A model generated the notes under the pieces. That model ran no database searches. It had not been told where the DNA came from and saw only the letters and a program-made list of their open reading frames with translations. This document shows positions 1 to 37,504 of a stretch of 40,294 nucleotides of DNA, piece by piece; positions within the stretch are counted from its first letter, which is position 1, and every line of letters begins with the position of its first letter. Made by a program: the position numbers and the translations under genes. The stretch comes from Rhodanobacteraceae bacterium (GTDB lineage: Bacteria > Pseudomonadota > Gammaproteobacteria > Xanthomonadales > Rhodanobacteraceae). The stretch covers positions 1 to 40,294 of the forward strand of contig DASVDY010000093.1 of NCBI GenBank assembly GCA_036380855.1. The letters run 5' to 3'.

Positions 1-364
1 TCTCGTCCACGATCACGCGCATCTTTTCCAGCTGCGCGGCATTGTCGGCCTGCAGCGATTTCAGTTGCGCATCCAGCGTGGCACGCACCTCGTTCAGGCG
101 CTTTTCGTTGTCGGCGGTCAGGCCCGAGAGCGTCTGCCGCAATTGTTCGGCCAGCCGCGCCAGCGACTCGGCCAGTTCGCCGCGGCCGGCGCGCTGCTCC
201 TCGCGCAACACGCGTTCGATGCGCTCGCTGTCGCCGCGCAGTGCATCGAGCCTGGCGGCGAGCGCGGAATCCTCCGGTTGCCGCGTGCGTTTCAGCAGCG
301 CGACCAGCAGCCCGCAGGCGGCGAGCAGCGCGATCAGTACCAGGACGAGCAGGACGGTGTTCAC
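1..364 (-). CDS. rmuC: DNA recombination protein RmuC, N-terminal part (3' end lies beyond window start)
   Basis: Not in the ORF track because it runs off the edge. My reverse-strand translation from GTG at 364 gives VNTVLLVLVLIALLAACGLLVALLKRTRQPEDSALAARLDALRGDSERIERVLREEQRAGRGELAESLARLAEQLRQTLSGLTADNEKRLNEVRATLDAQLKSLQADNAAQLEKMRVIVDE. That is one N-terminal TM helix followed by a coiled coil, as in RmuC. An in-frame TGA lies a few codons upstream of the GTG. Confidence 0.6.
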   Translation of the reverse strand, partial: MNTVLLVLVLIALLAACGLLVALLKRTRQPEDSALAARLDALRGDSERIERVLREEQRAGRGELAESLARLAEQLRQTLSGLTADNEKRLNEVRATLDAQLKSLQADNAAQLEKMRVIVDE

Positions 365-425
365 GGCGGCAACGATGACGAGAGATGCGCGAAGTGTACG
401 CGCCCCGGGTCTCAGGAGCTGAGCG

Positions 426-1373
426 TCATTCCAGGTGATCGGCAGCTTCGTGCAGGTCCGCGACGTGCTGCTCCCACCAGCGCGCTTCCGCGGCAAACGG
501 GAACGCGGCGGGAAACGCCGGATCGTGCCAGCGCTCGGCGACCCAGCCGGCCCAGTGCACCTGGCGCATGGCGCGCAGCGCCGGGACCAGCGCGCGCTCA
601 CGCGGATCGAAGTCGCGGAATTGCGCGTAGCCTTCCAGCAGCGTGTCGAGGGCATCGTCGTCGCTTGCGAGCATCCACAGGTCCTGCACCGCCGGGCCCA
701 TGCGCGCGTCGTCCAGGTCCACGAAATGCGGGCCGGCATCGGTCCACAACAGGTTGCCGGGATGGCAATCGCCGTGCAGCCGGATTTGCGCGACCCGGCC
801 CACGGCTTCGCAGCGGCTGGCCACCGCCGCATCCACCCGCCGGATCGCCCGTGCGTAGTTTTCATGCAGGCGCGCGGGCAGCAGCGACGACGCCTGCACC
901 GCGCGCGACGGCGCCCCGATGAAGGTCGCGCGATCGAGCGTGCCGCGATGCCGGAACGGCGTCCGCGCGCCGACCGCGTGCATGCGCGCCAGCAGGCGTC
1001 CGATCCATTCCAGGTGCTCGCGCGACTCCATTTCGCCGGCGCGTCCACCGCGGCGCGGATAGATCGAGTAGCGGAAACCGGCGTGGCGCAGCAGCGTTTC
1101 ACCATCGAACGCCAGCGGCGCGATCACCGGCAATTCGGCGTCGGCCAGCTCGCGCGCGAAGGCGTGCTCTTCCGCGATCGCTTCGTCGCTCCAGCGCTGC
1201 GGCCGGTAGAACTTGGCCACCACGAAGCCGCCGTCTTCCAGCCCGATCTGGTAGACGCGGTTCTCGTAACTGTTCAGCGCAAGCAGCCGGCCGTCGGGAT
1301 CGAGGCCCGCCGCGGCGATGGCATCGAGCGCGGTGTCGGGCGTGAGTTCCGAGTAAGGGGCTTGTGCGTTCAC
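426..1373 (-). CDS. srkA: Stress-response serine/threonine kinase SrkA (YihE/RdoA family)
   Basis: 315-aa ORF. It has the phosphotransferase-fold catalytic loop HGDCHPGNLLW and the metal-binding FVDLDD motif. The N-terminal LALNSYENRVYQ and FVVAKFYRPQRW segments are typical of YihE/SrkA. Confidence 0.85.
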   Translation of the reverse strand: MNAQAPYSELTPDTALDAIAAAGLDPDGRLLALNSYENRVYQIGLEDGGFVVAKFYRPQRWSDEAIAEEHAFARELADAELPVIAPLAFDGETLLRHAGFRYSIYPRRGGRAGEMESREHLEWIGRLLARMHAVGARTPFRHRGTLDRATFIGAPSRAVQASSLLPARLHENYARAIRRVDAAVASRCEAVGRVAQIRLHGDCHPGNLLWTDAGPHFVDLDDARMGPAVQDLWMLASDDDALDTLLEGYAQFRDFDPRERALVPALRAMRQVHWAGWVAERWHDPAFPAAFPFAAEARWWEQHVADLHEAADHLE

Positions 1374-1398
1374 CAGCCCATTGTTGCAGGGCGGCCGC

Positions 1399-1610
1399 TC
1401 AGGTGGCGACGTTGCGCGTATTCACCGCCCGCTGCGGCACCACCGCCATGGTCAGGCGCGAGATGCAGGTGAGCTCGCCCGCCTCGTTCTCGATGCGGAT
1501 TTCCCACACCTGGGTGCTGCGGCCCACGTGCAGCGGCCGCGCGGTGCCGGTGACCACGCCCTCGCGCACCGCGCGCAAATGGTTGGCGTTGATCTCGAGC
1601 CCGACCGTGG
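1399..1610 (-). pseudogene. Displaced 3' fragment of the PaaI-type thioesterase gene (duplicate of 3062-3241)
   Basis: The C-terminal 60+ residues of track ORF 1399..1773 (VGLEINANHLRAVREGVVTGTARPLHVGRSTQVWEIRIENEAGELTCISRLTMAVVPQR) are identical to the C-terminal region of the intact gene at 3033..3479. The upstream part of that ORF (MSQSNCSKPKVKPHC...) is read-through into low-GC insert DNA and shows no thioesterase similarity. Confidence 0.8.
1410..1610. repeat. Direct repeat, copy 1 (core 1431-1610)
   Basis: 1431-1610 aligns base-for-base with 3062-3241 (offset 1631) with 3 mismatches, at 1480/3111, 1525/3156 and 1555/3186. A further homologous block cgttgcgNgtattcac occurs at 1410-1425 and 3001-3016, separated from the core by a ~40-bp indel in copy 2. 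Confidence 0.9.
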
Positions 1611-1715
1611 GGACAGCAACACTGACGGAGGACTCGCGAATTGAGCGTGCGTCGAGCTCGGGGGCCGAGCGCCCGTTGTAAGAATTTGCCGACAAGAAGT
1701 TAGGAAAAACTCCCG

Positions 1716-1744
1716 TTGACGACCCCTGGCAGTGAGGCTTTACT
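1716..1744 (+). promoter_or_regulatory. Candidate sigma70-type promoter for the islet genes
   Basis: TTGACG (1716-1721), a 17-nt spacer, then TTTACT (1739-1744). It is followed by an 8-bp inverted repeat GAGCAATT (1754-1761) / AATTGCTC (1783-1790) that could be an operator. Identified by pattern match only. Confidence 0.25.
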
Positions 1745-1810
1745 TTCGGCTTGGAGCAATTGCTTTGCGACAAGAGCTACTGAATTGCTCTCACGTCAAT
1801 TCACCTTCAT

Positions 1811-2767
1811 GTGATAAAAAGGGGTATTCCAATCAGAAAGGGAATTGCTTTTGCCCTAGGCGCGGTAATCTTCTCTGCCGCTCAGGCACAGATTGTCGCA
1901 AAAGATTGTACGGGGTGTTCTACGTCGGAAATCGAAGCGTTGGCTCCCAACTGCTCGAGTGGATACTCCTACATCACGAATTTCACATCCCAAAACATGT
2001 ACAAGGTCTGCTTCATGTGGGATGTCAACGACGCATATCGCCCCCCTCGAAGAGAGAAAGATTATTCTTGGGCAAGCCCGGAATCACGGTATAAGCTCGA
2101 ATTCCAAGCTTATGAGAACGTCTACCTTTACAACGGTCATTTTGAAGGCTTGGCGATGTACGTGCACGTTCAGACACCTGCAGCTGTGAGAGCGTCGACT
2201 TCATTTGCCAGCTACGGAAGCTTGACGTCTGCTGATAATGGATATGTGAACGCCTTCGATACTGTAACTTCGGTCACAGACAACAATCGGGTGGTGGCGT
2301 ACCTGATGAGTACTAACTTCAACGCAGAAGACATCAAGAACTGGAACCCTCCATTCGGCCCCGCATTAGTTGCAGCAATCGCCCAATTGGAAAATGCGAT
2401 TAAGTCAAACGATATTAGCTTCCAAAACTTCAACGCGACATACATCGTTGAGTTCCCGGACGGAAGCCAGCGAACATACAGGTACGACCCTACAGGCCAT
2501 ATCTTCGTCGCTGTTCCCGGGACAGCCTATGACGCGCACGGTAACAAGATTCCCGAGAATGCGAACATGGCAACCAACGGCGGCGGGACGGCGAATTACG
2601 ACTACACCGGAGGCGGCCCTGGGTACGACCAGCCAAACATGGAGACTGTCCTGCGAAATCTCGGGGCCCAAGGCATTCCGGTTGTCAGTGGCGGTGGTGG
2701 TGATCAGATCGAGTGTTCTTGGAACGACAGCACAAACACCCTATCGTGCACGATCAAGCAATTCTGA
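1811..2767 (+). CDS. Secreted Cys/Gly-rich protein of unrecognised family (318 aa)
   Basis: The N-terminus MIKRGIPIRKGIAFALGAVIFSAAQAQ/IV has the form of a Sec signal peptide: basic n-region, hydrophobic core and an AQA cleavage motif. The mature part has six Cys (CTGC, NC, VC near the N-terminus; ECSWNDSTNTLSC at the C-terminus) and Gly-rich tracts (NGGGTANYDYTGGGPGY, VSGGGGD). The GTG start has no obvious SD. I recognise no family. Confidence 0.7.
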   Translation: MIKRGIPIRKGIAFALGAVIFSAAQAQIVAKDCTGCSTSEIEALAPNCSSGYSYITNFTSQNMYKVCFMWDVNDAYRPPRREKDYSWASPESRYKLEFQAYENVYLYNGHFEGLAMYVHVQTPAAVRASTSFASYGSLTSADNGYVNAFDTVTSVTDNNRVVAYLMSTNFNAEDIKNWNPPFGPALVAAIAQLENAIKSNDISFQNFNATYIVEFPDGSQRTYRYDPTGHIFVAVPGTAYDAHGNKIPENANMATNGGGTANYDYTGGGPGYDQPNMETVLRNLGAQGIPVVSGGGGDQIECSWNDSTNTLSCTIKQF

Positions 2768-2794
2768 TGCATTCGACCAGGAGCAACTACAACC

Positions 2795-3028
2795 ATGAGC
2801 TACGCCGCGTTGGGAATCTTGCTGGCGATAATTGCCCTGTATACGCACTCTGTCCCGGCCAGATTAGCTTTGGGTGCTTTTGTGTTGTTGCTATCTGGAT
2901 TGTTTCTTTACCAGCGTAAGCGAGCTGAAAAGGATGCTCGATCTAGAATCGCACTCGCATTGAGTTGCGCGTCAGCCGTGCTCGGAATGTGGGATCTCGT
3001 CGTTGCGGGTATTCACATGGCCGGATAG
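2795..3028 (+). CDS. Small multi-pass membrane protein (77 aa), partner of the secreted protein
   Basis: AGGAG lies 11 nt upstream of the ATG. There are two to three hydrophobic helices (AALGILLAIIALYT, LALGAFVLLLSGLFLY, IALALSCASAVLGMWDLVVAGI) with a basic loop QRKRAEKDARSR. The last ~9 codons lie inside the direct-repeat homology (3001-3016), so the native C-terminus may have been altered. Confidence 0.5.
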   Translation: MSYAALGILLAIIALYTHSVPARLALGAFVLLLSGLFLYQRKRAEKDARSRIALALSCASAVLGMWDLVVAGIHMAG

Positions 3029-3241
3029 CACTTCAAGAGGCGTTGTGGCGGTGGTGCCCGCGCTGCGGCACCACCGCCATGGTCAGGCGCGAGATGCAGG
3101 TGAGCTCGCCGGCCTCGTTCTCGATGCGGATTTCCCACACCTGGGTGCTGCGGCCGACGTGCAGCGGCCGCGCGGTGCCGGTGACGACGCCCTCGCGCAC
3201 CGCGCGCAAATGGTTGGCGTTGATCTCGAGCCCGACCGTGG
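3001..3241. repeat. Direct repeat, copy 2 (core 3062-3241)
   Basis: See copy 1. This copy forms the 3' end of the intact thioesterase gene. Confidence 0.9.
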
Positions 3242-3479
3242 CCATGCCTTCTTCGCAGCAAAGCATCGCCGCGGTGCTCCCCAGCGTTTCCGCCAGCGCG
3301 ACCGACGCGCCGCCGTGCAGGATGCCGTAGGGCTGGCGGGTGCGCGAGTCCACCGGCATCGTGCCGCGCAGGAAGTCGTCGCCGATCGCGGTGATGCGGA
3401 TGTCTATCGTGCGCATCAGCGTGTTCTCGCTCCAGCGATTGATGGTGGCGAGGTCGACTTCCTGCTTCCAGATTGACAT
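3033..3479 (-). CDS. PaaI/YbdB-type hotdog-fold acyl-CoA thioesterase
   Basis: The GILHGGASVALAETLGS motif and overall layout match the PaaI thioesterase family. The start is placed at ATG 3479 (MSIWKQEVDLATIN...), giving 148 aa, rather than at the upstream start in the track. Confidence 0.85.
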   Translation of the reverse strand: MSIWKQEVDLATINRWSENTLMRTIDIRITAIGDDFLRGTMPVDSRTRQPYGILHGGASVALAETLGSTAAMLCCEEGMATVGLEINANHLRAVREGVVTGTARPLHVGRSTQVWEIRIENEAGELTCISRLTMAVVPQRGHHRHNAS

Positions 3480-3586
3480 AGAGGCCCCAGATGAGTCGCG
3501 ATCATCCGATCGCAGGATCGAAACAGCAGTCATCCATGCGGGTAATCAGGCTCCGAATTGTGCCGCGTTTCGGCGACAATGCCGGC

Positions 3587-4639
3587 ATGTCACACTTTGT
3601 TACCTTGGCCGCCAGCGGCAAGCGCTTCGAGGTGCGCGAGGGCGAGACCGTGCTGGAAGCCGCGCAGCGCGCGGGGCTTGCGCTCTCCTACTCGTGCCTC
3701 GCGGGCGTCTGCGGCAGTTGCAAGGCCACGCTGCTGGAGGGCGAGTGCGCCTATCCGCGCAATCCCCCGGCCGCCTTGAGCGCCGCCGAGCGCGCGCGCG
3801 ACGCGGTGCTGCTGTGCCAGGCGGTGCCGCAGACCGACCTCGTGATCGCCGCCCGCGAAGTGGCATCGGTCGAGGACCTGCCGCGCCGCGTCGTGAGCGC
3901 GAAGGTGATCGCGAAGGAGGCGCTGGCGCCGGACATGGTCCGGCTGCGGCTGCAGACCACGCCGCGCCTGCGCTGGTTGCCGGGACAGTATCTCGACGTG
4001 CTGCTGGAAGACGGCCGGCGTCGCGCGTTCTCGATCGCCCTGGCGCCGCACCTGGGCCCGCAACTGGAATTGCACGTGCGCCACGTCGCCGGCGGCGGAT
4101 TCACCTCGTTCGTGTTCGACGAACTGGCGCCCGGCGACACGCTGCGCGTGGAGGGCCCGCTCGGAACCTTCGTGCCGCGCGAAGATTCCGAGCGGCCGAT
4201 GATCCTGATGGCCGGCGGCGCGGGCTTCGCGCCGATCAAGGCGCTGGTCGAGCACTTCCTGCACCTTGGCACGCGCCGCGCGATGCACCTCTACTGGGGC
4301 GCGCGCACGGCGGCGGACCTTTATCTGCGCGAGCTTCCGCAGCAGTGGGCGCGCGAGGCCGAGCGCCTCGAATGGCAGGCGGTGCTTTCGGATGCGCACG
4401 CCGCGCACGAAGCGCATGCGCGCACGGGCCTGGTGCATGAGGCGGTGCTCGAGGACCATCCCGATCTTTCCGGCTTCGACGTCTACATGAGCGGCCCGCC
4501 GGCGATGATTGACGCCGGCCGCCGCGCGTTCGTGGAGGCGGGATTGCCGGAAGACCGGCTTTATTACGACTCGTTCGACTATGCCCCGGACGTGCTGGCG
4601 CAGATTCTTTCGAACCGCGCCGGCATCCACGGGCTCTAG
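3587..4639 (+). CDS. 2Fe-2S ferredoxin / FAD-NAD(P)H oxidoreductase (AscD / Fre-like, CDP-6-deoxy-delta-3,4-glucoseen reductase family)
   Basis: Plant-type ferredoxin cysteines CLAGVCGSC...LLCQA, flavin motif RAFSIA and nucleotide motif MAGGAGFAP are present. The start is placed at ATG 3587 (MSHFVTLAASG). Confidence 0.85.
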   Translation: MSHFVTLAASGKRFEVREGETVLEAAQRAGLALSYSCLAGVCGSCKATLLEGECAYPRNPPAALSAAERARDAVLLCQAVPQTDLVIAAREVASVEDLPRRVVSAKVIAKEALAPDMVRLRLQTTPRLRWLPGQYLDVLLEDGRRRAFSIALAPHLGPQLELHVRHVAGGGFTSFVFDELAPGDTLRVEGPLGTFVPREDSERPMILMAGGAGFAPIKALVEHFLHLGTRRAMHLYWGARTAADLYLRELPQQWAREAERLEWQAVLSDAHAAHEAHARTGLVHEAVLEDHPDLSGFDVYMSGPPAMIDAGRRAFVEAGLPEDRLYYDSFDYAPDVLAQILSNRAGIHGL

Positions 4640-16772: not shown

Positions 16773-17055
16773 GATCCCCTTCCCGTGGCCTTGGCTGAAT
16801 CCAGTTCAAGCATACACATCTGGCGACGGCGCTCAATCGGGCCCGGCGACGAACTGTCGCAACTGCGAGACGATTCGGCTCTTGCCAGCGCCTGCATCGG
16901 GCCTACCATGAAACCCATTCCTCAGGCGGAATTTCGGCCGGACGGAACAGGGGGTGGCAAGGGACTGCGGCAGGCGCGTGCGTCCGGGACAACGCGCGAG
17001 TTCTTGCCGGGCATGCAGGAAAGCGTGCCGCCACAGCGGCGCGGGACGGCCATCG

Positions 17056-17084
17056 GGAGGGGCGGAAACGCCCCTCCTTTTTTT
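17056..17084 (+). terminator. Strong intrinsic terminator with no upstream + strand gene (leader attenuator or sRNA terminator)
   Basis: GGAGGGGCG (17056-64), a GAAA loop and CGCCCCTCC (17069-77) are followed by TTTTTTT (17078-84). A second T7 run lies at 17093-99. Confidence 0.8.
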
Positions 17085-17169
17085 GTGGGCGGTTTTTTTG
17101 TTCACGCGACGCCCCCATGCTGTCACACGCGCCTGCCATAATCCCCCCGTTCGTCACGAGTCGCTTCGC

Positions 17170-18999
17170 GTGCAAGATCACGCCTTCCTGCAATCGGCCG
17201 TCGTCTTCCTGCTTGCAGTGGTGATTGCCGTGCCGCTGGCGCGGCGGCTGAAACTCGGATCGGTGCTCGGGTACCTGGCGGCCGGCGTGGCGATCGGTCC
17301 GTTCGGACTGCAATGGGTGCGCAACCCGGGCGCGATCGCCGGCATCTCCGAGCTGGGCGTGGCATTGCTGCTGTTCGTGATCGGACTCGAGCTCTCGCCG
17401 CAGCGGTTGTGGGTGATGCGCCGTTCGGTATTCGGCGCCGGCGCCGCGCAGGTGGTCGCCTGTGCCGCGGCCCTGGGCGCGATCGCCCACTTCGGTTTCG
17501 GCATGGGCCGGGCCAGCGCCAGCGTGATCGGGCTCGGGCTCGCGCTGTCCTCGACCGCCTTCGGATTGCAGACGCTGGCCGAACGCAAGGAGCTGCCGAG
17601 CGCGCATGGCCGGCTCGCGTTCGCCGTCCTGCTGTTCCAGGATCTGGCCGCGATCCCGCTGATCGCCGCCATTCCGTTGCTGGGCGTGCAGGTCGCCACC
17701 CATGCCGGGCAGCCGTGGTGGCTGGGCGCGTTGCGCGTGATCGGGGTCATCGCGGTGGTGGTGATCGGCGGCCGTTTTGCCTTGCGGCCGCTGTTCCGCG
17801 CGGTGGCGAAGACGCGGCTGGTCGAGGTGTCCACCGCGACGGCATTGCTGGTGGTGATCGGAACCGCGTACCTGATGCAACTTGCCGGCATTTCGATGGC
17901 ACTCGGCACGTTCCTCGCCGGCGTGCTGCTGGCCGATTCCGAGTACCGGCACGAGCTCGAATCACACATCCAGCCGTTCGAAGGATTGCTTCTCGGCCTG
18001 TTCTTCATCGCGGTCGGAATGGGCGTGGACCTGCACCTGCTGGTCGCGCATCCATGGATCGTGTGCGGGCTGGTCGCGCTGCTGCTCGCCTGCAAGGCGC
18101 CACTGCTGGCAGCGATCGCGCGCCTCGCCGGGCTGGATTACCCGGGGTCGGTCCGGATGGCCGTGCTGCTGGCCGGGGGCGGCGAATTCGCCTTCGTCGT
18201 CTTCAAGCTGGCCGCCGAACGCGGCCTGCTCGATGCCGACCAGCACCGCCTGCTGGTGCTGGTCATCACGCTCAGCATGGCCGCGGTGCCGCTGCTGGTG
18301 CTGGCGGGCGCGCGGCTGCCGGCCGCGCAGGGGCCGAAGCGCGAATTCGACGCGATCGAAGGCGATGCGCCGCGCGTGATCATCGCCGGGTTCGGTCGCG
18401 TGGGCCAGATCGTGGCGCGCCTGCTGCGCGCGCACCACATCCGCTTCACCGCGCTGGAATCCTCCGTCGAGCAGGTGGACCTGTCGCGGCGCTTCGGCGG
18501 CACCGAAATCTACTTCGGCGATCCTTCACGCATGGAACTGCTGCGCGCCGCGCAGGCCGACAAGGCCGAAGTATTCGTGCTCGCCACCGACGATCCGGAG
18601 ACCAACGTGCGCACCGCGCGCATCGTGCGGCGCCTGTATCCGCATCTCAAGATCATCGCGCGCGCGCGCAACCGCCAGCATGCATTCCGGCTGATGGACC
18701 TCACCTCGCCCGAGGTGGTGGTGCGCGAGACCTTCCATTCCAGCCTGAAGATGGCGCAACTGACGCTGGAGGCGCTGGGGCTCGCGCCGGAAGCGGCGCG
18801 CTCGCGGGTGGAAACGTTCCGCCGCTACGACGAGCAACTGCTGCGCGACCAGCACCTCGTCTACGACGACGACGCGGCGATGGTGCAGAGTTCGAAGGAA
18901 GCTTACGCGGAGCTGGAGCGGCTGTTCGAGGCCGATATCGCCTCGAATGTCGTCGAGATCACTCCGCCGACGACGCGGGCTGGCGCAGCACGCGACTGA
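17170..18999 (+). CDS. kefB: Glutathione-regulated K+ efflux (K+/H+ antiporter) KefB/KefC family with C-terminal TrkA-N domain
   Basis: The N-terminus VQDHAFLQSAVVFLLAVVIAVPLARRLKLGSVLGYLAAGVAIGP matches Kef N-termini. The Rossmann motif RVIIAGFGRVGQIVARLL is present. The start is placed at GTG 17170 within the longer track ORF. Confidence 0.85.
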   Translation: MQDHAFLQSAVVFLLAVVIAVPLARRLKLGSVLGYLAAGVAIGPFGLQWVRNPGAIAGISELGVALLLFVIGLELSPQRLWVMRRSVFGAGAAQVVACAAALGAIAHFGFGMGRASASVIGLGLALSSTAFGLQTLAERKELPSAHGRLAFAVLLFQDLAAIPLIAAIPLLGVQVATHAGQPWWLGALRVIGVIAVVVIGGRFALRPLFRAVAKTRLVEVSTATALLVVIGTAYLMQLAGISMALGTFLAGVLLADSEYRHELESHIQPFEGLLLGLFFIAVGMGVDLHLLVAHPWIVCGLVALLLACKAPLLAAIARLAGLDYPGSVRMAVLLAGGGEFAFVVFKLAAERGLLDADQHRLLVLVITLSMAAVPLLVLAGARLPAAQGPKREFDAIEGDAPRVIIAGFGRVGQIVARLLRAHHIRFTALESSVEQVDLSRRFGGTEIYFGDPSRMELLRAAQADKAEVFVLATDDPETNVRTARIVRRLYPHLKIIARARNRQHAFRLMDLTSPEVVVRETFHSSLKMAQLTLEALGLAPEAARSRVETFRRYDEQLLRDQHLVYDDDAAMVQSSKEAYAELERLFEADIASNVVEITPPTTRAGAARD

Positions 19000-21900: not shown

Positions 21901-22396
21901 GGTCCTGCTCGCCCGTGAGGTGCGTGGCGAAGGCGACACTGCGGGTCAGCGCGGTGGAAATCCATGAGCGCTCTTCGCCTTGGGGAAAGGCGTCGTCCCA
22001 TACGAACACCAGGCCGAACGCGGGCCACAGTCGCCACAGCAGTGCGAGCGCCGCGACCAGCGCCGCGCACAATGCCAGGGTCGCAACCAGCGAAGGCGCC
22101 TGCGACAACGCCAGCAGCGGCCACGCCACGAGCACGAACACCACCGCGGTGTAGAACGAGAACAGGATCAGGTGCGTCGCGCCGCGCAGCAGGACGGTGC
22201 GCAGGAAGGAGGTCTCCGGGTCGAAGCCGATCGCATGGCACATCGCCGCCATGCACAGGGTATTGGCCAGCAGCAACGGCAGCAGGGCGAGGGTGCGCGC
22301 ACCGAAGGCGGCCAGTGCGACCGCCGCCAGGGCGGGCAGGAAGCAGGGCAGGGAAAGCAGCAGCGGCGGCCGTCGGCGCGGCTTGGAGCTTGGCAT
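18959..22396 (-). CDS. Large membrane-anchored ankyrin-repeat protein (1145 aa)
   Basis: The N-terminal ~230 aa contain about 6 hydrophobic helices. After a Pro/acidic linker come about 19-20 ANK-like repeats in two blocks (e.g. GADPRLCDRDGNTPLHHAA, GANPNLADRHGTTALMEAA, GADPNVRDRDGATPLHIAL, GADPALTDEHGRTALHAAA). Confidence 0.85.
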   Translation of the reverse strand: MPSSKPRRRPPLLLSLPCFLPALAAVALAAFGARTLALLPLLLANTLCMAAMCHAIGFDPETSFLRTVLLRGATHLILFSFYTAVVFVLVAWPLLALSQAPSLVATLALCAALVAALALLWRLWPAFGLVFVWDDAFPQGEERSWISTALTRSVAFATHLTGEQDHFFSHFLPAALAYLALAFGALALAGVGSVMPDELRTAALFLYAIVLLPLCTLIAANRTLRILLCGSRDRPRGGEEPPRAESGDTPLAPAADPDTASHANPSQLPQAALNQGLLDSSRAGEVDRALQWLEAGADPDALPAAGARDQRSALVLAALLPDTRLLRALIARGAQVNRAHADVTALLAATRDSYHGRAEAVMTLLANGADPRLCDRDGNTPLHHAALAAEPSIAAILIDAQAPLDALNRNRHSPLGSAAGAGNWSLLKFLLEHGAKCEPAQGEPALLAAAAVADDDPQGVQILLKHKARVDAVDSLGRSALMSAALEGHPGIARTLLEAGANPNLADRHGTTALMEAARAGACEVLEALLAAQPDVHARDAHGRDALLLACQSPRANARCIQALLAAGADPHARSADGRNALEHAANAGRWDLVALLDPSKPLPSSHAVAAQPEPGADTPAHLLDALRFGHWAVVAGFAERARAWPVAELAALYLELSEAEHAGARQWLLEHGLGAEPTLDDGVRLFDALIERLPESQDALRQLLEAGASCSGAGLYARTLAKLVDAPQAAPFALDLLARGADAFGADPGHRTPLHYAACAALAPVLDALLERGADPNVRDRDGATPLHIALNADRAAALPLVRALVAHGADPECPAANGETPLGLALARGDATLEHWLRWGAWPLPQRPLRASDLPLAASCGDADAVSKLLELGFPINTRDERGASALLRACGAGHVDAAQRLLQARADAMLAAESGATPLSAAVSARRVEVVKLLLEHGARADQRLPGNATALMVAAALGFPEIVEALLERGADPALTDEHGRTALHAAARFCFDSRDSLRCRRLLDALLRTCGKDPARVDAADAQGATPLLLLLGAQAKPDAVADGTHLAALLPALLDAGANPDRADARGVGALHACAMHALFAPARALLARGANREGTDGFGRTPSDVARLLGLVDLAMELAPRAMPGVSRVLRQPASSAE

Positions 22397-22693
22397 TGAA
22401 CGGAAACTCGCAACGGCGGAAGCGCCGCAGTATACGCAAGGCTCACGCGCGCAAACGGTAACGCGGCGTTAATTGCGGCGGCCCGCGGTCGCCCGGAAAT
22501 CGAATGCGCGCCGGCGGGCCCGTTGCGCGATCGGGGGCCCTTGACCGGGGTCAATGCGCCGCGACGGCGCTTTCTTCAGGCTCTTGATTCCTCGTCGCGA
22601 TCCGTTCACAGTGGCGCCCGGGAGTTCAAACAAGCGTATGAATAGCGCCATCCGGCGCCTTCGCGCGCGTCTCAACCTGAGGGAGAACGTTTC

Positions 22694-34479: not shown

Positions 34480-35684
34480 ACGTGCGCCGGCCCTTGCGTG
34501 CACTTGCCTGGATTGCCTGCGCGTTCGCGTTCTGTGTGATCGTGTTCGGTGCGTTCGTGCGGCTGTCCAACGCCGGCCTGTCGTGCCCGGACTGGCCGAC
34601 CTGCTACGGCCACGTCACCTGGCCGCAGCGCCCGCATGCGATCGCCAAAGCCGATGCCGCGTTTCCGGATCGGCCCTACGAAACGCACAAGGCCTGGCGC
34701 GAGCAGACGCACCGTTTCCTCGCCGGCACCCTGGGCGTGCTGGTGCTGGCGCTTGCGCTCGCGGCGAGCTGGCGCGTGCGCCGGCGCCTGCTGCTGGTGA
34801 TCGCCGGCATCGCGCTGATTGCGATCGGCATTCCGCTCTACATGGCGCGGCATTACGTTCCCTCCAGCATCGTGGCGGCGGCCGGCGAAGCGCTGCTGCT
34901 GGGCTGCACGCTGTTCTGGCGCGGCGGTGGCTGGCGGCGCGTCGCGGTGCTGACGCTGGCGGTGGTGTCGTTCCAGGCGCTGCTGGGCATGTGGACGGTG
35001 ACGTGGTTGCTGAAGCCGATCGTGGTGTCGGGGCACCTGCTGGGCGGCATGACGACGTTCGCGCTGCTGGCGTGGCTTGCGTGGAACTCGAGCGGCGCGC
35101 ATGCACGAACACCGCGCGAAGCCTCGCTGCAGACCGCGGTCGTGATCGGCCTGGTGCTGCTGGCCTGCCAGATCTTCCTCGGCGGATGGACATCGTCGAA
35201 CTACGCCGCGCTTGCCTGCGGCATCGGCCCGCAATCGTTCCCGAAGTGCCTCGGCCAGTGGTGGCCGCCGGTGGATTTCCACCAGGGCTTCATCCTCTGG
35301 CGCGGCATCGGCGTGAACTTCGAAGGCGGCATCCTGGACGCGGCGGCGCGCAGCGCGATCCAGATTGCGCACCGCTTCGGCGCGTTGGTCGTGTTCGTGT
35401 ACCTCGCGTGGCTCGCGCACAAGGTCGCGCGTGCAGGGTTGCGCGGACTCGGCATTGCGCTTGGCGTTCTGCTGCTGGCGCAGGTCGCGCTGGGCATCAG
35501 CAACGTGATGTTCGGTCTGCCGCTGGCGGTGGCGGTCGCGCACAACGGCGGCGCCGCGCTGCTGCTGTTCACGGTGGTGTCGCTGGTGGCCCATACCCAG
35601 CGCGCCCGCGCCGGCGTCCCTGCCACCCAGCCGCTTGCCCTTGATGAAAGTTCGGGATCGCGCGCAGGCGCGCTCCTACAATAG
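34476..35684 (+). CDS. ctaA: Heme A synthase (COX15/CtaA)
   Basis: [22 protein letters not shown], multiple TM helices and conserved His (EQTHRF, IAHRFGA) are present. Confidence 0.85.
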
Positions 35685-35688
35685 GCGG

Positions 35689-36609
35689 ATGTTCTCCCTC
35701 GCTTCCCAATATTTCGAGCTGACCAAGCCGCGCATCGTCGCGCTGCTGGTGTTCACCGCCGTCATCGGCATGTTCCTGGCGGTACCCGGCGTGCCGCCGT
35801 GGCGCGCGCTGGTTTTCGGCACGCTCGGCATCTGGCTTGCATCCAGCTCGGCCGCGGCGCTGAACCAGTTGATTGACCAGCGCATAGACAAGGTGATGGC
35901 GCGCACCTCGCACCGGCCCCTTCCGAGCGGCACGCTGACCACGCGCCAGGTGCTCACTTTCGCGGTGATCATCGGCGTGCTCTCGATGGCGGTGCTGTTC
36001 TTCCTCGTCAACCCACTGACCGCGCTGCTGACTTTCGCCGGCCTGATCGGTTACGCGGTGATCTACACCGCGTTCCTGAAACGCGCCACCCCGCAGAACA
36101 TCGTGATCGGCGGGCTGGCGGGCGCGATCCCGCCGCTGCTGGGCTGGTCGGCAGTCACCGACATGCGCGGCCCGACCGACTGGGCCTACGCGCTGCTGCT
36201 GGTTCTGATCATCTTCGCCTGGACGCCGCCGCACTTCTGGTCGCTCGCGATCTTCCGCCGCGAGGACTACAAGCGCGCCTGCATCCCGATGCTGCCGGTC
36301 GCCTACGACGTGCAGTACACGCGCTGGCACGTGCTGTTCTACACCGTGCTGCTGGTGCTGGTCACATTGCTGCCTTATCTCACCGGCATGAGCGGGCTGT
36401 GCTATCTCGGCGGCGCGCTGGTGCTCGGCATCGCCTATCTCTATTACGCGGCGCGGCTGATGCGGCCGCCGGACGAACTGTTCGCGATGCGCGCGTTCGG
36501 CTATTCGCTGGTCTACCTGATGGCGCTGTTCGCGTTCCTGCTGATGGACCACTGGCTGCTGGCACCGATGGTGCCGCACGCCGGCTACGTGCTGGAGCGG
36601 GTCGGCTGA
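35689..36609 (+). CDS. ctaB: Protoheme IX farnesyltransferase (heme O synthase)
   Basis: [33 protein letters not shown] and [10 protein letters not shown] are present. The start is ATG 35689. Confidence 0.9.
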
Positions 36610-36610
36610 A

Positions 36611-37504
36611 ATGCCAGGCGTGTTGCACTGGTTCGTGCCCTGGGAGCCCTCACCCACCGCGGTGATCTGCTTCCTCGTCGCGGCGCTTTTGTATTGGCGC
36701 GGCACGCGACGGTCGCCACTGACGACCACCCGCCTTCGGCAACTGGCGTTCTGGTCGGGACTGGCCGTGATCTACATCGGCCTGCACACGCAGCTCGACT
36801 ATTACGCCGAGCACGAGTTCTTCGTGCATCGCCTGCAGCACCTCGGCCTGCATCACCTCGGTCCGTTCCTGATCGCGCTGGCCTATCCGGGCGCGGCGTT
36901 CCGCCGCGCGCTGCCGATCGGATTCCGCGCCCGCGTGCTGCGGCCGGCGCTGACGCGCGGACCGCTGCGCTGGGCGTTGGACGTGCTGTTCAACCCGGTC
37001 ATCGCATCGCTGCTGTTCTTCGGGCTGATCTGGTTCTGGCTGTGGCCCGCGGTGCATTTCGACGCGATGCTCGACTGGCGGCTCTATCGCGTGATGAACT
37101 GGAGCATGGCCGTGGACGGCCTGCTGTTCTGGTGGCTGATCCTGGACCCGCGCCCGCGCCCGCCGGCGCGGCTGGCACCGGGGGTGCGGATCCTGGTGGC
37201 GCTGGCGGTGATGATTCCGCAGATCCTGGTCGGCGCCTACATCACCTTCGCCCACGGCGACCTCTACCCGATCTACGACCTGTGCGGCCGCGCGTTTGGC
37301 GGGGTCAGCCAGGCCACCGATCAATACCTGGGCGGGCTGATCCTGTGGATTCCCTCATCCATGATGAGCGTGCTCGGTGCGCTGGTCGCGTTCCGGCACT
37401 GGCTGCGGCTTTCCACCCGTGGGCGCCTTGCGATCCAGCAGCGCTGGAAGGCGCAGCGGAAGCTGCAACAACGGCAGCTCGAGCAGCGCGGCGCGTCCAC
37501 GTAA
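36611..37504 (+). CDS. ctaG: Caa3_CtaG-type (Bacillus-type) cytochrome c oxidase assembly membrane protein
   Basis: 297 aa and polytopic, with W..P....I and HEFFVHRLQHLGLHHLGPFLIALA His-rich motifs as in the Caa3_CtaG family. It follows ctaB with a 1-nt gap. Confidence 0.75.
   Translation: MPGVLHWFVPWEPSPTAVICFLVAALLYWRGTRRSPLTTTRLRQLAFWSGLAVIYIGLHTQLDYYAEHEFFVHRLQHLGLHHLGPFLIALAYPGAAFRRALPIGFRARVLRPALTRGPLRWALDVLFNPVIASLLFFGLIWFWLWPAVHFDAMLDWRLYRVMNWSMAVDGLLFWWLILDPRPRPPARLAPGVRILVALAVMIPQILVGAYITFAHGDLYPIYDLCGRAFGGVSQATDQYLGGLILWIPSSMMSVLGALVAFRHWLRLSTRGRLAIQQRWKAQRKLQQRQLEQRGAST

What the first reader, a model, noticed from the sequence alone, without database searches (positions are those of the whole stretch)
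1811..3028. Islet cargo: a Sec-secreted Cys/Gly-rich 318-aa protein plus a 77-aa multi-TM partner, a candidate undescribed two-gene module
Seen in sequence: ORF 1811-2767 has a clear signal peptide (basic n-region, hydrophobic core, AQA/Q). It has six Cys arranged as N-terminal CxxC...C...C and a C-terminal C-x9-C, and Gly-rich tracts near the C-terminus. Twenty-seven nt downstream, with its own AGGAG, is a 77-aa protein made almost entirely of hydrophobic helices with one basic loop. I recognise no family for either protein.

Inference: a secreted, disulfide-stabilised protein followed by a tiny membrane protein on a horizontally acquired islet is the usual layout of bacteriocin or secreted-toxin plus immunity pairs. 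Other roles, such as an adhesin or a phage-derived lysis/exclusion module, are equally open. The last ~9 codons of the small ORF are built from repeat-derived sequence (3001-3028), so its C-terminus may be a recombination product.
Basis: partly seen in the sequence, partly recalled or inferred. Interest (0 to 1): 0.7.

Follow-up and report, generated by a model that had tools for sequence, protein, structure and literature searches.

The report
Uncharacterised exported protein plus small membrane partner
Both genes are real and conserved together: an exported protein from a large unnamed family with no recognisable fold, followed by a tiny membrane protein. Their function is unknown, the insertion is old rather than recent, and this genome's copy of the large gene has lost its normal start codon.

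Summary
The sequence features are there and both ORFs are real genes. Both have homologues. dN/dS is 0.04-0.05 for the large gene (window or L011 vs L012) and 0.08-0.26 for the small one.

The 318-aa protein belongs to a large uncurated family: 453 clusters at 50% identity, no Pfam, NCBIfam, PHROG or PADLOC match. Its model is confident (pLDDT 82) but matches nothing in PDB or BFVD. The only recognisable element is one Rhs/YD-like hairpin.

The 77-aa three-helix ORF follows the large gene in every close relative with downstream sequence. A sister clade carries an unrelated PLDc_N 2-TM ORF in that position. Other clades carry none.

- The module is old. It sits next to rmuC and the thioesterase in at least four other lineages, with saturated synonymous sites, yet keeps GC3 near 0.5.
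- An 8-bp deletion removed the family's ATG start in this window. The ORF survives only through an upstream GTG with no Shine-Dalgarno sequence.
- The small ORF's C-terminus is native. The left repeat copied it, not the reverse.

Function is unresolved. I weakly favour an envelope antagonism module (about 0.3). An orphan periplasmic protective protein is nearly as likely.

The parts
1706..1734 (+). Putative promoter of the module: TTGACG, 17-nt spacer, TTTACT
   Evidence: The -35/-10 block aligns with TTGACA...ATTACT in L012 and TTGACA...TACACT in L014. The tool's strict sigma-70 scan did not call it because the -10 lacks A at position 2. Putative only.
1811..2767 (+). Large gene: 318-aa exported protein. 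Signal peptide is codons 1-26 (nt 1811-1888). The mature protein is 292 aa, 32 kDa, pI 4.66.
   Evidence: ORF listed. Homologues, alignments. dN/dS 0.04-0.05 against L012. AF2 model pLDDT 81.8, pTM 0.77. Physical properties.
1818..1834 (+). Ancestral ribosome-binding site (AAAGGGG, 1818-1824) and the scar of an 8-bp deletion at the 1826/1827 junction that removed the family's ATG start
   Evidence: Alignment A3: L011 reads GGGGTA-TGCCATGG-TTCC where the window reads GGGGTA-TTCC. L012 and L013 keep CCATGG and L014 has TCATGA, so all four keep the ATG.
2426..2560 (+). Conserved core of the family (residues about 206-250): F-x-DGS...Y-x-Y/F-D...VPGTA-x-D-x-x-GN-x-IPE, an Rhs/YD-repeat-like beta-hairpin meander
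   Evidence: Sub-threshold Pfam RHS_repeat hit at residues 216-231 (17.6 bits against a cut-off of 22). A local 24-aa match to Rhs protein 8h8b. The 3143-aa YD-repeat protein P0038 hits this stretch 14 times. The invariant or near-invariant residues D217, S219, D241 and N245 lie here.
2779..2783 (+). AGGAG Shine-Dalgarno sequence of the small gene, 11 nt upstream of its ATG
   Evidence: Sequence read.
2795..3028 (+). Small gene: 77-aa basic (pI 9.9) membrane protein with three helices. Inferred topology is N-in, C-out, with the basic loop in the cytoplasm.
   Evidence: ORF. Eight homologues of 77-81 aa. dN/dS 0.08-0.26. AF2 helices at 4-16, 20-42 and 49-76, at low confidence (pLDDT 63.5). Hydropathy. 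Unrelated to PLDc_N (hhalign probability 0.4%).
3001..3243 (.). Right copy of the direct repeat: the last 26 nt of the small ORF, its 2-nt tail, and the 3' end of the intact thioesterase gene
1410..1612 (.). Left copy of the direct repeat. It is 98% identical over 181 nt, begins with a 16-nt piece of the small ORF's 3' end, and carries a deletion of about 40 nt relative to the right copy. It forms a 5'-truncated thioesterase pseudogene (ORF 1399-1773, minus strand).
   Evidence: Repeat D1. 16-mer match. Alignment A5. Partial 4HBT hit covering only the C-terminal half of the domain.
3033..3533 (-). Intact hotdog thioesterase (4HBT; EntH/MenI/PaaI-like). It converges on the small gene, with the two stop codons 4 nt apart.
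   Evidence: Pfam 4HBT 3.3e-21. NCBIfam hotdog thioesterase. Orthologues flank the module in L012 and L030.
426..1373 (-). APH-family kinase gene lying between rmuC and the module. It is absent from that position in L012 and L030 and lies on the other side of the module in L013.
   Evidence: Pfam APH 2.1e-38. Synteny comparisons.
1..372 (-). 5' part of rmuC, the conserved left neighbour of the module in relatives
   Evidence: Window 1-122 matches the RmuC gene (PF02646) of L030 at 82%. L012 positions 2-210 match window 216-423 at 78%.

Best explanation
Shown (about 0.9 confidence):
- This is a self-contained two-gene unit with one putative promoter.
- Gene 1 encodes a Sec-exported, soluble, acidic 32-kDa protein. 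It has a conserved CxxC just after the cleavage site, a C-terminal disulfide-stapled hairpin, and a core made of an Rhs/YD-like beta-hairpin.
- Gene 1 belongs to a large unnamed family of about 290-aa proteins in soil Proteobacteria, especially Xanthomonadales. The predicted fold matches nothing solved.
- Gene 2, 27 nt downstream, encodes a clade-specific three-helix inner-membrane protein.
- The unit is compositionally foreign but old. It has been inherited at the rmuC/thioesterase junction across several lineages.

Inferred (about 0.3 confidence):
- The unit works at the cell envelope in interbacterial antagonism.
- The exported protein is the active, non-enzymatic, target-binding component. 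It acts in the periplasm or, if passed on by a type II system, outside the cell.
[quoted passage not shown] Here the unit is probably in the toxin-decays, protection-stays state, or is expressed only weakly from GTG 1811.
For: - Reality and linkage. Homologues and purifying selection support both genes. The small ORF is present after the large gene in the window and in all five distinct clade-A relatives with downstream sequence.
- A second small partner. An unrelated PLDc_N 2-TM ORF occupies the same position in all five distinct clade-C loci. Two unrelated small membrane partners for two subfamilies recalls the 3-TM and 4-TM immunity types of pore-forming colicins (established knowledge).
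- Accessory-gene behaviour. The genes form low-GC islets of 1-1.5 kb at different chromosomal sites. IS elements are adjacent in L003 and L006. L006 sits inside an X-Tfe (XVIPCD) / LprI effector-immunity cluster. L028 has three tandem paralogues next to GmrSD and RelA_SpoT genes. L019 and L025 carry extra truncated paralogues.
- Independent lesions in the large gene with the small gene intact. The window has the 8-bp start deletion. L030 has an in-frame TAA at codon 190, from GAR to TAA.
- A precedent in the same order. The Bcn-A bacteriocin of Xanthomonas perforans depends on xpsD (T2SS) and has an immunity protein predicted to lie in the inner membrane (PMC7259588).
Against: - No toxin feature is visible. 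There is no conserved catalytic-type residue; the invariant or near-invariant positions are Cys, Gly, Phe and turn residues of the YD-like motif. There is no hydrophobic or amphipathic insertion element (maximum KD19 of 0.73). The variable linker at 126-141 is absent in clade B.
- Many family members have no small membrane ORF: L001, L019, L025, L024, L026 and L028.
- Bacteriocin loci are usually strain-variable. This unit has been kept at one locus under strong purifying selection through divergence down to 53% amino-acid identity.
- A Sec signal peptide shows export to the periplasm only. No secretion route is demonstrated.
- No expression data are available.
- Two lesions among six loci is a small sample. 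L030 is a metagenome assembly.
Confidence: 0.3

Rival explanations
1. Orphan protective (immunity-type) periplasmic protein. The large protein stays in the periplasm and neutralises an incoming envelope-targeting effector from competitors (T4SS, T6SS or a bacteriocin). The small membrane protein would be a second, independent protective gene in the same small defence islet, or an accessory.
For: - The invariant residues are structural rather than catalytic, and the protein is acidic (pI 4.66).
- Diverged paralogues occur in tandem arrays, with truncated copies.
- Most loci hold the gene alone, with no toxin gene beside it.
- L006 lies inside an X-Tfe/LprI effector-immunity cluster.
- L028 lies beside defence-type genes and small soluble ORFs.
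- The gene has been retained for a long time under purifying selection.
Against: - No cognate effector is known, and only one of about ten loci is near effectors.
- At 32 kDa with three sub-domains it is large for an immunity protein.
- The tight, clade-wide pairing with a small membrane ORF is not explained.
- It is not a lipoprotein. I recall that Xanthomonadales T4SS immunity proteins usually are; this was not checked here.
Confidence: 0.25
2. Envelope physiology, not antagonism. The large protein would be a periplasmic binding or structural protein, for example carbohydrate- or peptidoglycan-binding through the YD-like hairpins, or redox- or metal-active through the conserved CxxC. It would work with a small inner-membrane partner in stress tolerance or envelope maintenance.
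For: - The unit has been inherited vertically at one locus under strong purifying selection. Its rate of change is similar to hemY (54% identity against 57%).
- A CxxC sits at a strand-to-helix junction directly after the signal-peptide cleavage site and is conserved in more than 90% of 75 diverse members.
- PLDc_N small proteins are widespread stand-alone membrane proteins that are not tied to toxins (my own knowledge; no relevant literature was found).
Against: - Distribution is patchy, with insertion at different sites, IS association, paralogue arrays and repeated decay.
- GC3 stays foreign at about 0.5 against 0.83-0.87 in host genes.
- No match to thioredoxin, HMA or any binding-protein family by Pfam or Foldseek.
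Confidence: 0.2
3. In this particular genome the large gene is a relic, whatever the family does. Without its ATG and its Shine-Dalgarno-to-start geometry it is not productively translated, and only the small gene, if any, still functions. This is orthogonal to the functional readings above.
For: - The 8-bp deletion removed the ATG that is conserved in L011, L012, L013 and L014.
- The only in-frame canonical start upstream of the signal peptide is GTG 1811, and it has no purine-rich Shine-Dalgarno sequence.
- L030 shows an independent nonsense lesion.
Against: - The ORF is otherwise intact and still encodes a plausible signal peptide.
- The window is only 1.5% diverged from L011, so decay cannot be judged.
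- Initiation without a Shine-Dalgarno sequence at GTG, with an A-rich downstream context, is possible.
Confidence: 0.4
4. Phage-derived lysis or exclusion module, with the small protein acting as a holin-like protein.
For: - The small protein has three helices.
- The L013 orthologue gives a weak Pfam Phage_holin_3_7 hit (E = 0.078).
Against: - The large protein has no relatives in 50,697 phage genomes or in IMG/VR contigs, and neither protein has a significant PHROG match; the large-protein model has no BFVD match.
- No phage genes occur in any of the loci examined.
- The inferred N-in/C-out topology is opposite to that of class I holins (established knowledge).
Confidence: 0.03
5. A recently integrated islet whose flanking 181-243-nt direct repeats are its attachment sites.
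For: Direct repeats of the thioesterase 3' end flank the low-GC segment.
Against: - There is no integrase.
- L012 and L030 carry the same module between rmuC and the thioesterase. L030 lacks the second thioesterase copy; the L012 contig ends inside the thioesterase, so only the left side can be judged there.
- The left repeat includes a 16-nt piece of this lineage's own small-ORF 3' end. It is therefore a secondary, lineage-specific duplication of the right junction.
- dS between orthologous modules is saturated.
Confidence: 0.05

Closest known systems
Pore-forming colicins with small integral-membrane immunity proteins (E1-type with 3 TM helices, A-type with 4 TM helices). Comparison from established knowledge.
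   Same: A larger protein gene sits next to a very small multi-helix inner-membrane protein. Different toxin subfamilies use unrelated immunity types, which parallels the p77 and PLDc_N partners seen here.
   Different: - Colicins have no Sec signal peptide, are plasmid-borne, SOS-induced and released by a lysis protein.
- Their killing domain is a helical bundle with a hydrophobic hairpin. This protein is an alpha/beta fold, soluble, with a maximum KD19 of 0.73.
- There is no sequence or fold match.
- Both genes here are co-oriented.
Xanthomonas perforans Bcn-A bacteriocin locus (PMC7259588)
   Same: It comes from the same bacterial order. The locus encodes a YD/Rhs-repeat toxin whose activity depends on xpsD (T2SS), a 290-aa accessory protein with a signal peptide, and a small immunity protein predicted to lie in the inner membrane.
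   Different: - Bcn-A is a 1,398-aa Rhs protein with many YD repeats, and the locus has five genes.
- The window protein has one YD-like hairpin, and no Rhs protein is encoded nearby.
- No homology to Bcn-A ORF4 or ORF5 could be tested, because their sequences are not held.
- The two published ORF4 helix peptides have no counterpart in the family alignment.
Rhs / YD-repeat proteins (Pfam RHS_repeat PF05593; PDB 8h8b)
   Same: The family's most conserved stretch (vvFpDGSkrtYkfD...G.A.D..GN.IPE) aligns locally to single YD repeats. A 3143-aa YD-repeat protein matches it 14 times.
   Different: - There is only one repeat unit, below the Pfam threshold.
- There is no repeat shell, no Rhs core motif and no C-terminal toxin domain.
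- Foldseek finds no Rhs or Tc structure.
PLDc_N small membrane proteins (PF13396)
   Same: In the sister clade, the position directly downstream of the large gene is occupied by a PLDc_N-type ORF with 2 TM helices (56-60 aa, or 70 aa as listed in L003). Pfam E-values run from 1e-5 to 5e-3 for four of the five ORFs scanned; the L007 ORF gave no hit.
   Different: The window's 77-aa protein is not a member. It gives no Pfam hit, and hhalign probability is 0.4%. It has three helices rather than two.
Periplasmic immunity-protein arrays of T4SS/T6SS systems (for example X-Tfi in Xanthomonadales, or orphan immunity islands). Comparison from established knowledge.
   Same: The protein is exported, non-enzymatic and acidic. 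It shows tandem diverged paralogues, orphan occurrences in low-GC islets, and one locus inside an X-Tfe/LprI cluster.
   Different: - There is no cognate effector.
- It is not a lipoprotein.
- It matches no curated immunity family.
- It is accompanied by a small membrane ORF.

Membership tests
Type-I Sec signal peptide (exported protein) | Basic n-region, hydrophobic h-region of 10-15 residues, and a small-x-small cleavage motif; no lipobox and no twin-arginine motif | tested here: met
   MIKRGIPIRKGIAFALGAVIFSAAQA|Q. The same pattern is conserved in homologues. Judged by inspection only; SignalP is not available. It shows export to the periplasm, not secretion.
Pore-forming colicin + immunity | Helical pore-forming domain with a hydrophobic helical hairpin | tested here: not met
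   The model is alpha/beta. Maximum KD19 in the mature protein is 0.73. No colicin Pfam hit and no Foldseek hit.
Pore-forming colicin + immunity | Adjacent small immunity protein with 3-4 TM helices, homologous to the Cai/Cei families | tested here: not met
   A small three-helix protein is adjacent, but it matches no immunity family in Pfam, NCBIfam or PHROGs. This is a resemblance of form only.
Pore-forming colicin + immunity | Plasmid-borne, no signal peptide, lysis gene present | tested here: not met
   No plasmid match. A signal peptide is present. There is no lysis gene in the 1.4-kb unit.
Rhs / YD-repeat toxins | Many tandem YD repeats forming a shell | tested here: not met
   There is one sub-threshold RHS_repeat hit (17.6 bits against a cut-off of 22). 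The protein is 318 aa. No Rhs structure appears in Foldseek.
Rhs / YD-repeat toxins | Rhs core motif followed by a variable C-terminal toxin domain | tested here: not met
   The C-terminus is conserved family-wide and ends in a Cys-stapled hairpin. There is no variable tip.
PLDc_N (PF13396), tested for the 77-aa ORF | Match to the PF13396 profile: two TM helices and the W...P..G..Y motif | tested here: not met
   No hit at E <= 1. hhalign of A6 against A7 gives probability 0.4%.
Thioredoxin-like or HMA-type CxxC domains, tested for the N-terminal domain | Profile or fold match to a CxxC redox or metal-binding domain | tested here: not met
   The N-domains of seven diverse members gave no such Pfam hit at E <= 10. 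Foldseek found no such match. The geometry (strand, CxxC, helix) is suggestive only.
Integrative island with att repeats | An integrase or recombinase, and repeats created by integration | tested here: not met
   There is no recombinase ORF. The repeat is a secondary duplication that contains small-ORF sequence. L030 carries the module without the second thioesterase copy; L012 shows the same rmuC-module-thioesterase order, but its contig ends inside the thioesterase.
Phage holin or lysis cassette | Phage context, an endolysin partner, and a holin family match | tested here: not met
   Searches were negative. The only hit is the weak Phage_holin_3_7 match (E = 0.078) for the L013 orthologue.
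Effector-immunity pair (T4SS/T6SS) | Adjacency to a cognate effector gene | tested here: inconclusive
   There is none in the window. One locus (L006) lies within an X-Tfe/LprI cluster, but next to an IS element. The other loci have housekeeping neighbours.
Toxin-immunity module in general | Toxicity of the large protein and specific protection by the small one | not testable with these tools
   This needs expression and competition experiments.

The most novel reading that the evidence does not exclude
The pair would be founding members of a new class of envelope antagonism module in Xanthomonadales and other soil Proteobacteria. It would consist of a Sec-exported, disulfide-stapled, non-enzymatic protein with a previously unseen fold, built around a lone YD-like hairpin. 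This protein would kill or block cells at the envelope. Protection would come from interchangeable, unrelated micro-membrane proteins: the p77 family in one clade and PLDc_N in another. That would also give PLDc_N proteins their first function. The persistently unameliorated GC3 would reflect selection, for example xenogeneic silencing or expression control, rather than recent transfer.
Probability: 0.15. Interest if true: 0.75.

Novelty: new variant of a known kind. Interest (0 to 1): 0.45.

Why it matters
- The large protein represents at least 453 sequence clusters (at 50% identity) of exported proteins.
- Assigning the family a role would annotate hundreds of orphan genes, whichever role it is: toxin, protective protein or envelope factor.
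- It could also give a first functional handle on PLDc_N micro-proteins.
- The locus is a clean natural example of a gene pair that keeps foreign codon composition through long vertical inheritance. That bears on how amelioration and silencing work.
- For this particular genome the practical message is more modest. The large gene has lost its normal start, so the copy here may be poorly expressed or silent.

Tried and rejected
- **Curated libraries.** Pfam, NCBIfam, PHROGs and PADLOC were searched with both proteins, with 18 further family members, and with isolated N- and C-terminal domains. Nothing passed threshold. There was only a local RHS_repeat hit and a 22-aa MAP-domain match in P0004.
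- **Solved structures by sequence.** Searches with the single protein and with the 75-sequence profile found only 24-aa YD-repeat matches.
- **Fold search.** Foldseek of the pLDDT-82 model against PDB and BFVD gave a best E of 0.27-0.30 and TM-scores of about 0.1.
- **N-domain as HMA or thioredoxin-like.** This was considered because of the strand-CxxC-helix arrangement. It was rejected for lack of any profile or fold match.
- **Mobile-element or viral origin.** Plasmids, phage genomes and viral contigs gave no relatives.
- **RNA elements.** Rfam found nothing in 1300-3700. The 5'-UTR hairpin is not significant (z = -1.3).
- **Second word-index search.** The search with the broad alignment added almost nothing because of the candidate cap.
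- **Metagenome scan.** The narrow alignment gave seven loci.
- **Relationship between the two small-ORF families.** Rejected.
- **Repeats as att sites.** Rejected.
- **Order of events for the kinase and the truncated thioesterase copy.** The arrangements in the window, L012/L030 and L013 could not be reconciled into a sequence of events, because the relatives' contigs are only about 1.8 kb.
- **Literature.** Searches on PLDc_N and on Rhodanobacter bacteriocins gave nothing specific. The glycinecin A primary paper is not held.
Full report
**What is in the sequence**

The window is about 67-73% GC. The stretch from about 1620 to 3030 drops to 49-55%. It holds two co-oriented ORFs.
- ORF 1811-2767 is 318 aa and starts with GTG.
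- ORF 2795-3028 is 77 aa and starts with ATG. It lies 27 nt downstream, behind an AGGAG at 2779-2783.

The large product begins with a basic n-region, a 13-residue hydrophobic core and AQA|Q. Its cysteines are at 33, 36, 48, 67, 302 and 313. The C-terminal pair is therefore C-x10-C, not C-x9-C. The mature protein is 292 aa, 32 kDa and pI 4.66, and it has no hydrophobic segment (maximum KD19 of 0.73).

The small product is basic (pI 9.9). It forms three helices (4-16, 20-42, 49-76) around a loop, QRKRAEKDARSR. By the positive-inside rule this suggests an N-in, C-out topology, which is an inference.

**Both are real genes**

The word-index search found 19 relatives of the large protein. All are labelled hypothetical. 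They come from Rhodanobacteraceae, Xanthomonas albilineans and metagenomes.

An exhaustive profile search found 453 clusters at 50% identity with E <= 1e-3, and 133 with E <= 1e-10. Nearly all are full-length proteins of 270-330 aa. Named members are rare; one is from Dyella sp. ASV21.

The small ORF has eight relatives of 77-81 aa.

Nei-Gojobori dN/dS is 0.04-0.05 for the large gene (window or L011 against L012) and 0.08-0.26 for the small gene. Synonymous sites are saturated in most comparisons.

**What the large protein is**

No curated profile matches it in Pfam, NCBIfam, PHROGs or PADLOC. The same holds for 18 further family members and for isolated domains.

The AlphaFold model built from 20 sequences is confident (pLDDT 81.8, pTM 0.77). 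It shows three parts:
- an N-terminal alpha/beta domain (residues 28-119), with the CxxC sitting between the first strand and the first helix;
- a helical middle (148-197);
- a C-terminal beta domain (202-316) ending in a hairpin that carries Cys302 and Cys313.

Foldseek finds nothing in PDB or BFVD. The best E-values are 0.27-0.30 and TM-scores are about 0.1.

Across 75 diverse members the invariant or near-invariant positions are C33, C36, G51, F215, D217, S219, D241, N245 and C313. Six of these fall in the stretch F-x-DGS...VPG-x-A-x-D-x-x-GN-x-IPE. This stretch aligns locally to single Rhs/YD repeats:
- Pfam RHS_repeat at 17.6 bits, below the cut-off of 22;
- PDB 8h8b;
- a 3143-aa YD-repeat protein that hits it 14 times.

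The conserved residues therefore look structural. No catalytic signature and no membrane-insertion element is visible.

**Is the small ORF a partner?**

- **Window's clade** (54-98% identity). Every locus with downstream sequence has the small ORF 20-27 nt after the large gene: L011, L012, L013, L014-16 and L030.
- **Sister clade** (X. albilineans, Rhodanobacter sp. T12-5 and metagenomes). All five distinct loci instead carry an uncalled or separately called 2-TM ORF of 56-60 aa (a 70-aa ORF in L003), 0-73 nt downstream. These match Pfam PLDc_N with E from 1e-5 to 5e-3 in four of the five ORFs scanned, two of them above the gathering score; the L007 ORF gave no hit. They are unrelated to the 77-aa family (hhalign probability 0.4%).
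- **Third clade** (L001, L019, L025). There is no small ORF. A convergent ABC-2 permease gene follows within about 45 nt.
- **Distant members** (L024, L026, L028). None has a small ORF either.

A small membrane partner is therefore a recurrent feature of the family, but not a universal one.

**Behaviour of the family**

In every high-GC genome examined except L028, the gene is a low-GC islet of 1-1.5 kb. GC3 is 0.35-0.59 against 0.82-0.87 in host genes; in L028 it is 0.73.

The chromosomal sites differ:
- IS elements abut the gene in L003 and L006.
- L006 lies inside a cluster of XVIPCD-type T4SS effectors and LprI genes.
- L028 has three tandem paralogues (31-70% identity) beside GmrSD and RelA_SpoT genes.
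- L025 and L019 carry extra truncated paralogues.

No relative was found on plasmids, phages or viral contigs.

**The islet is old, and the repeats are secondary**

L012 shows rmuC 5' end, then the module, then the thioesterase 3' end. L030 (a 71-kb contig) shows rmuC, module, thioesterase, DUF2845, hemY, hemX, hemD; the rmuC, thioesterase and hemY-onward parts follow the same order as the window. L013 shows rmuC, module, a 44-nt thioesterase fragment, then the kinase.

Divergence of the module tracks that of its neighbours:
- window against L012: large protein 81%, small 71%, thioesterase C-terminal part 94%;
- window against L030: large protein 54%, small 45%, hemY 57%, thioesterase 82%.

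With dS saturated, this indicates long vertical inheritance at this junction. GC3 has nevertheless stayed near 0.5.

The window-specific feature is the APH-family kinase gene (426-1373) plus a 5'-truncated thioesterase copy (1399 to about 1620), both lying between rmuC and the module.

The direct repeat is 1430-1610 against 3061-3241, at 98% identity. It extends leftward to a 16-mer at 1410-1425 that matches 3001-3016 in 15 of 16 positions. Chance expectation is 0.03 matches in the window. That 16-mer lies inside the small ORF's 3' end, and about 40 nt between it and the repeat are deleted in the left copy.

The small ORF's C-terminus is conserved in L012, L013 and P0176. The left copy was therefore made from this lineage's own right-hand junction. 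The small ORF is not a recombination product, and the repeats are not att sites.

**The large gene is damaged here**

In L011 (98.5% identical over 1352 nt), L012, L013 and L014, the Shine-Dalgarno sequence AAAGGGG (GAGGG in L014) is followed by an ATG start, within CCATGG in L011-L013 and TCATGA in L014. The window lacks 8 bp (TGCCATGG) at the 1826/1827 junction.

This deletion removes the ATG. It also brings an upstream GTG (1811) into frame, so an ORF with a plausible signal peptide survives. GTG 1811 has no Shine-Dalgarno sequence, and the old one now faces ATT/ATC. Translation is therefore uncertain.

Independently, L030 has an in-frame TAA at codon 190 (GAR to TAA), with the rest of the gene and the small ORF intact.

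**Interpretation**

What is shown is a conserved, self-contained pair: an exported protein and a small membrane protein, from an undescribed family with an unmatched predicted fold.

What it does is not shown. I weakly favour an envelope-level antagonism module, at about 0.3. In that reading the exported protein is the active component and the small membrane protein is the producer's protection. The grounds are:
- the recurrent small membrane partners, drawn from two unrelated families;
- the accessory, mobile-in-origin behaviour of the family;
- the two lesions in the large gene that spare the small one;
- the precedent of the xpsD (T2SS)-dependent Bcn-A bacteriocin of X. perforans, whose immunity protein is predicted to lie in the inner membrane (PMC7259588).

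Against this reading:
- no toxin-like feature is visible;
- several clades have no partner ORF;
- the locus has been stable for a long time;
- a Sec signal in a diderm proves export to the periplasm only.

An orphan periplasmic protective protein (0.25) fits the non-enzymatic conservation pattern and the paralogue arrays about as well. A physiological envelope role (0.2) cannot be excluded. A phage origin and a recent integrative islet are unlikely.

**Verdict**

The label of undescribed two-gene module holds for this clade. The toxin/immunity reading remains a hypothesis. The claims of recent acquisition and of a chimeric small-ORF C-terminus are wrong.

Interest is moderate. This is a sizeable unnamed family with a new predicted fold and an unusual compositional history, but no mechanism is known and the copy in this genome is probably crippled.

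Noticed in passing
window 1811-3028, compared with L012, L013, L014 and L030: The module's GC3 stays at about 0.48-0.59 in every lineage, while host genes at the same locus have GC3 of 0.82-0.87. Synonymous sites between the orthologous modules are saturated. The foreign composition has therefore not ameliorated despite long vertical inheritance, which points to selection on composition or to repeated homologous replacement from a low-GC pool.
   Followed up: partly
window 426-1620: The APH-family kinase gene and a 5'-truncated thioesterase copy (ORF 1399-1773, minus strand, fused to islet-derived codons) lie between rmuC and the module only in this window. L012 and L030 lack the kinase there, and L013 has it on the other side of the module, next to a 44-nt thioesterase fragment. 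The order of rearrangements could not be resolved.
   Followed up: partly
window 3026-3035; L030 8217-8246: The small gene and the thioesterase gene converge with their stop codons 4 nt apart in the window. In L030 they overlap by 30 nt. There is no terminator between them, so the two transcripts would collide or overlap in antisense.
   Followed up: no
L030 7602-7604: The orthologous large gene in a 71-kb ENA metagenome contig carries a single in-frame TAA (from GAR) at codon 190. The gene is otherwise intact and the small ORF is intact. This could be a recent pseudogene or an assembly error.
   Followed up: partly
L028 3510-8541 (JGI Ga0105249 contig): Three tandem paralogues of the family (270, 300 and 298 aa) are interleaved with small soluble ORFs (83, 167 and 81 aa, no Pfam match). 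They lie directly downstream of GmrSD_N and RelA_SpoT genes in a low-GC patch. It looks like a defence or immunity-type island.
   Followed up: partly
L006 185-9214: One family member with its PLDc_N partner sits beside an IS (DDE_Tnp_1), between two LprI / XVIPCD T4SS-effector gene pairs and a HigB/HTH toxin-antitoxin pair.
   Followed up: no
clade-C homologues, alignment A1 columns about 128-165: The low-confidence linker (window residues 126-141) is replaced in clade C by a hydrophobic or amphipathic insert of about 25 aa that ends in AxA-like motifs (for example ...IINVIILSANA and ...MVSVAKAQGS). In clade B it is absent. It may be a processing site or a variable surface loop.
   Followed up: no
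window 17001-18500, 22001-22500 and 34501-37500: There are strong AT-skew excursions: -0.25 to -0.33, +0.46, and -0.23 to -0.34. GC is somewhat lower (0.57-0.63) around 28.5-32 kb in the composition profile. These regions were not examined.
   Followed up: no
Logan, ENA and JGI contigs carrying family members: Most contigs carrying the family are only 1-4 kb long. These low-GC islets in high-GC genomes seem to assemble as isolated fragments, which probably hides the family's genomic context in metagenomes.
   Followed up: no
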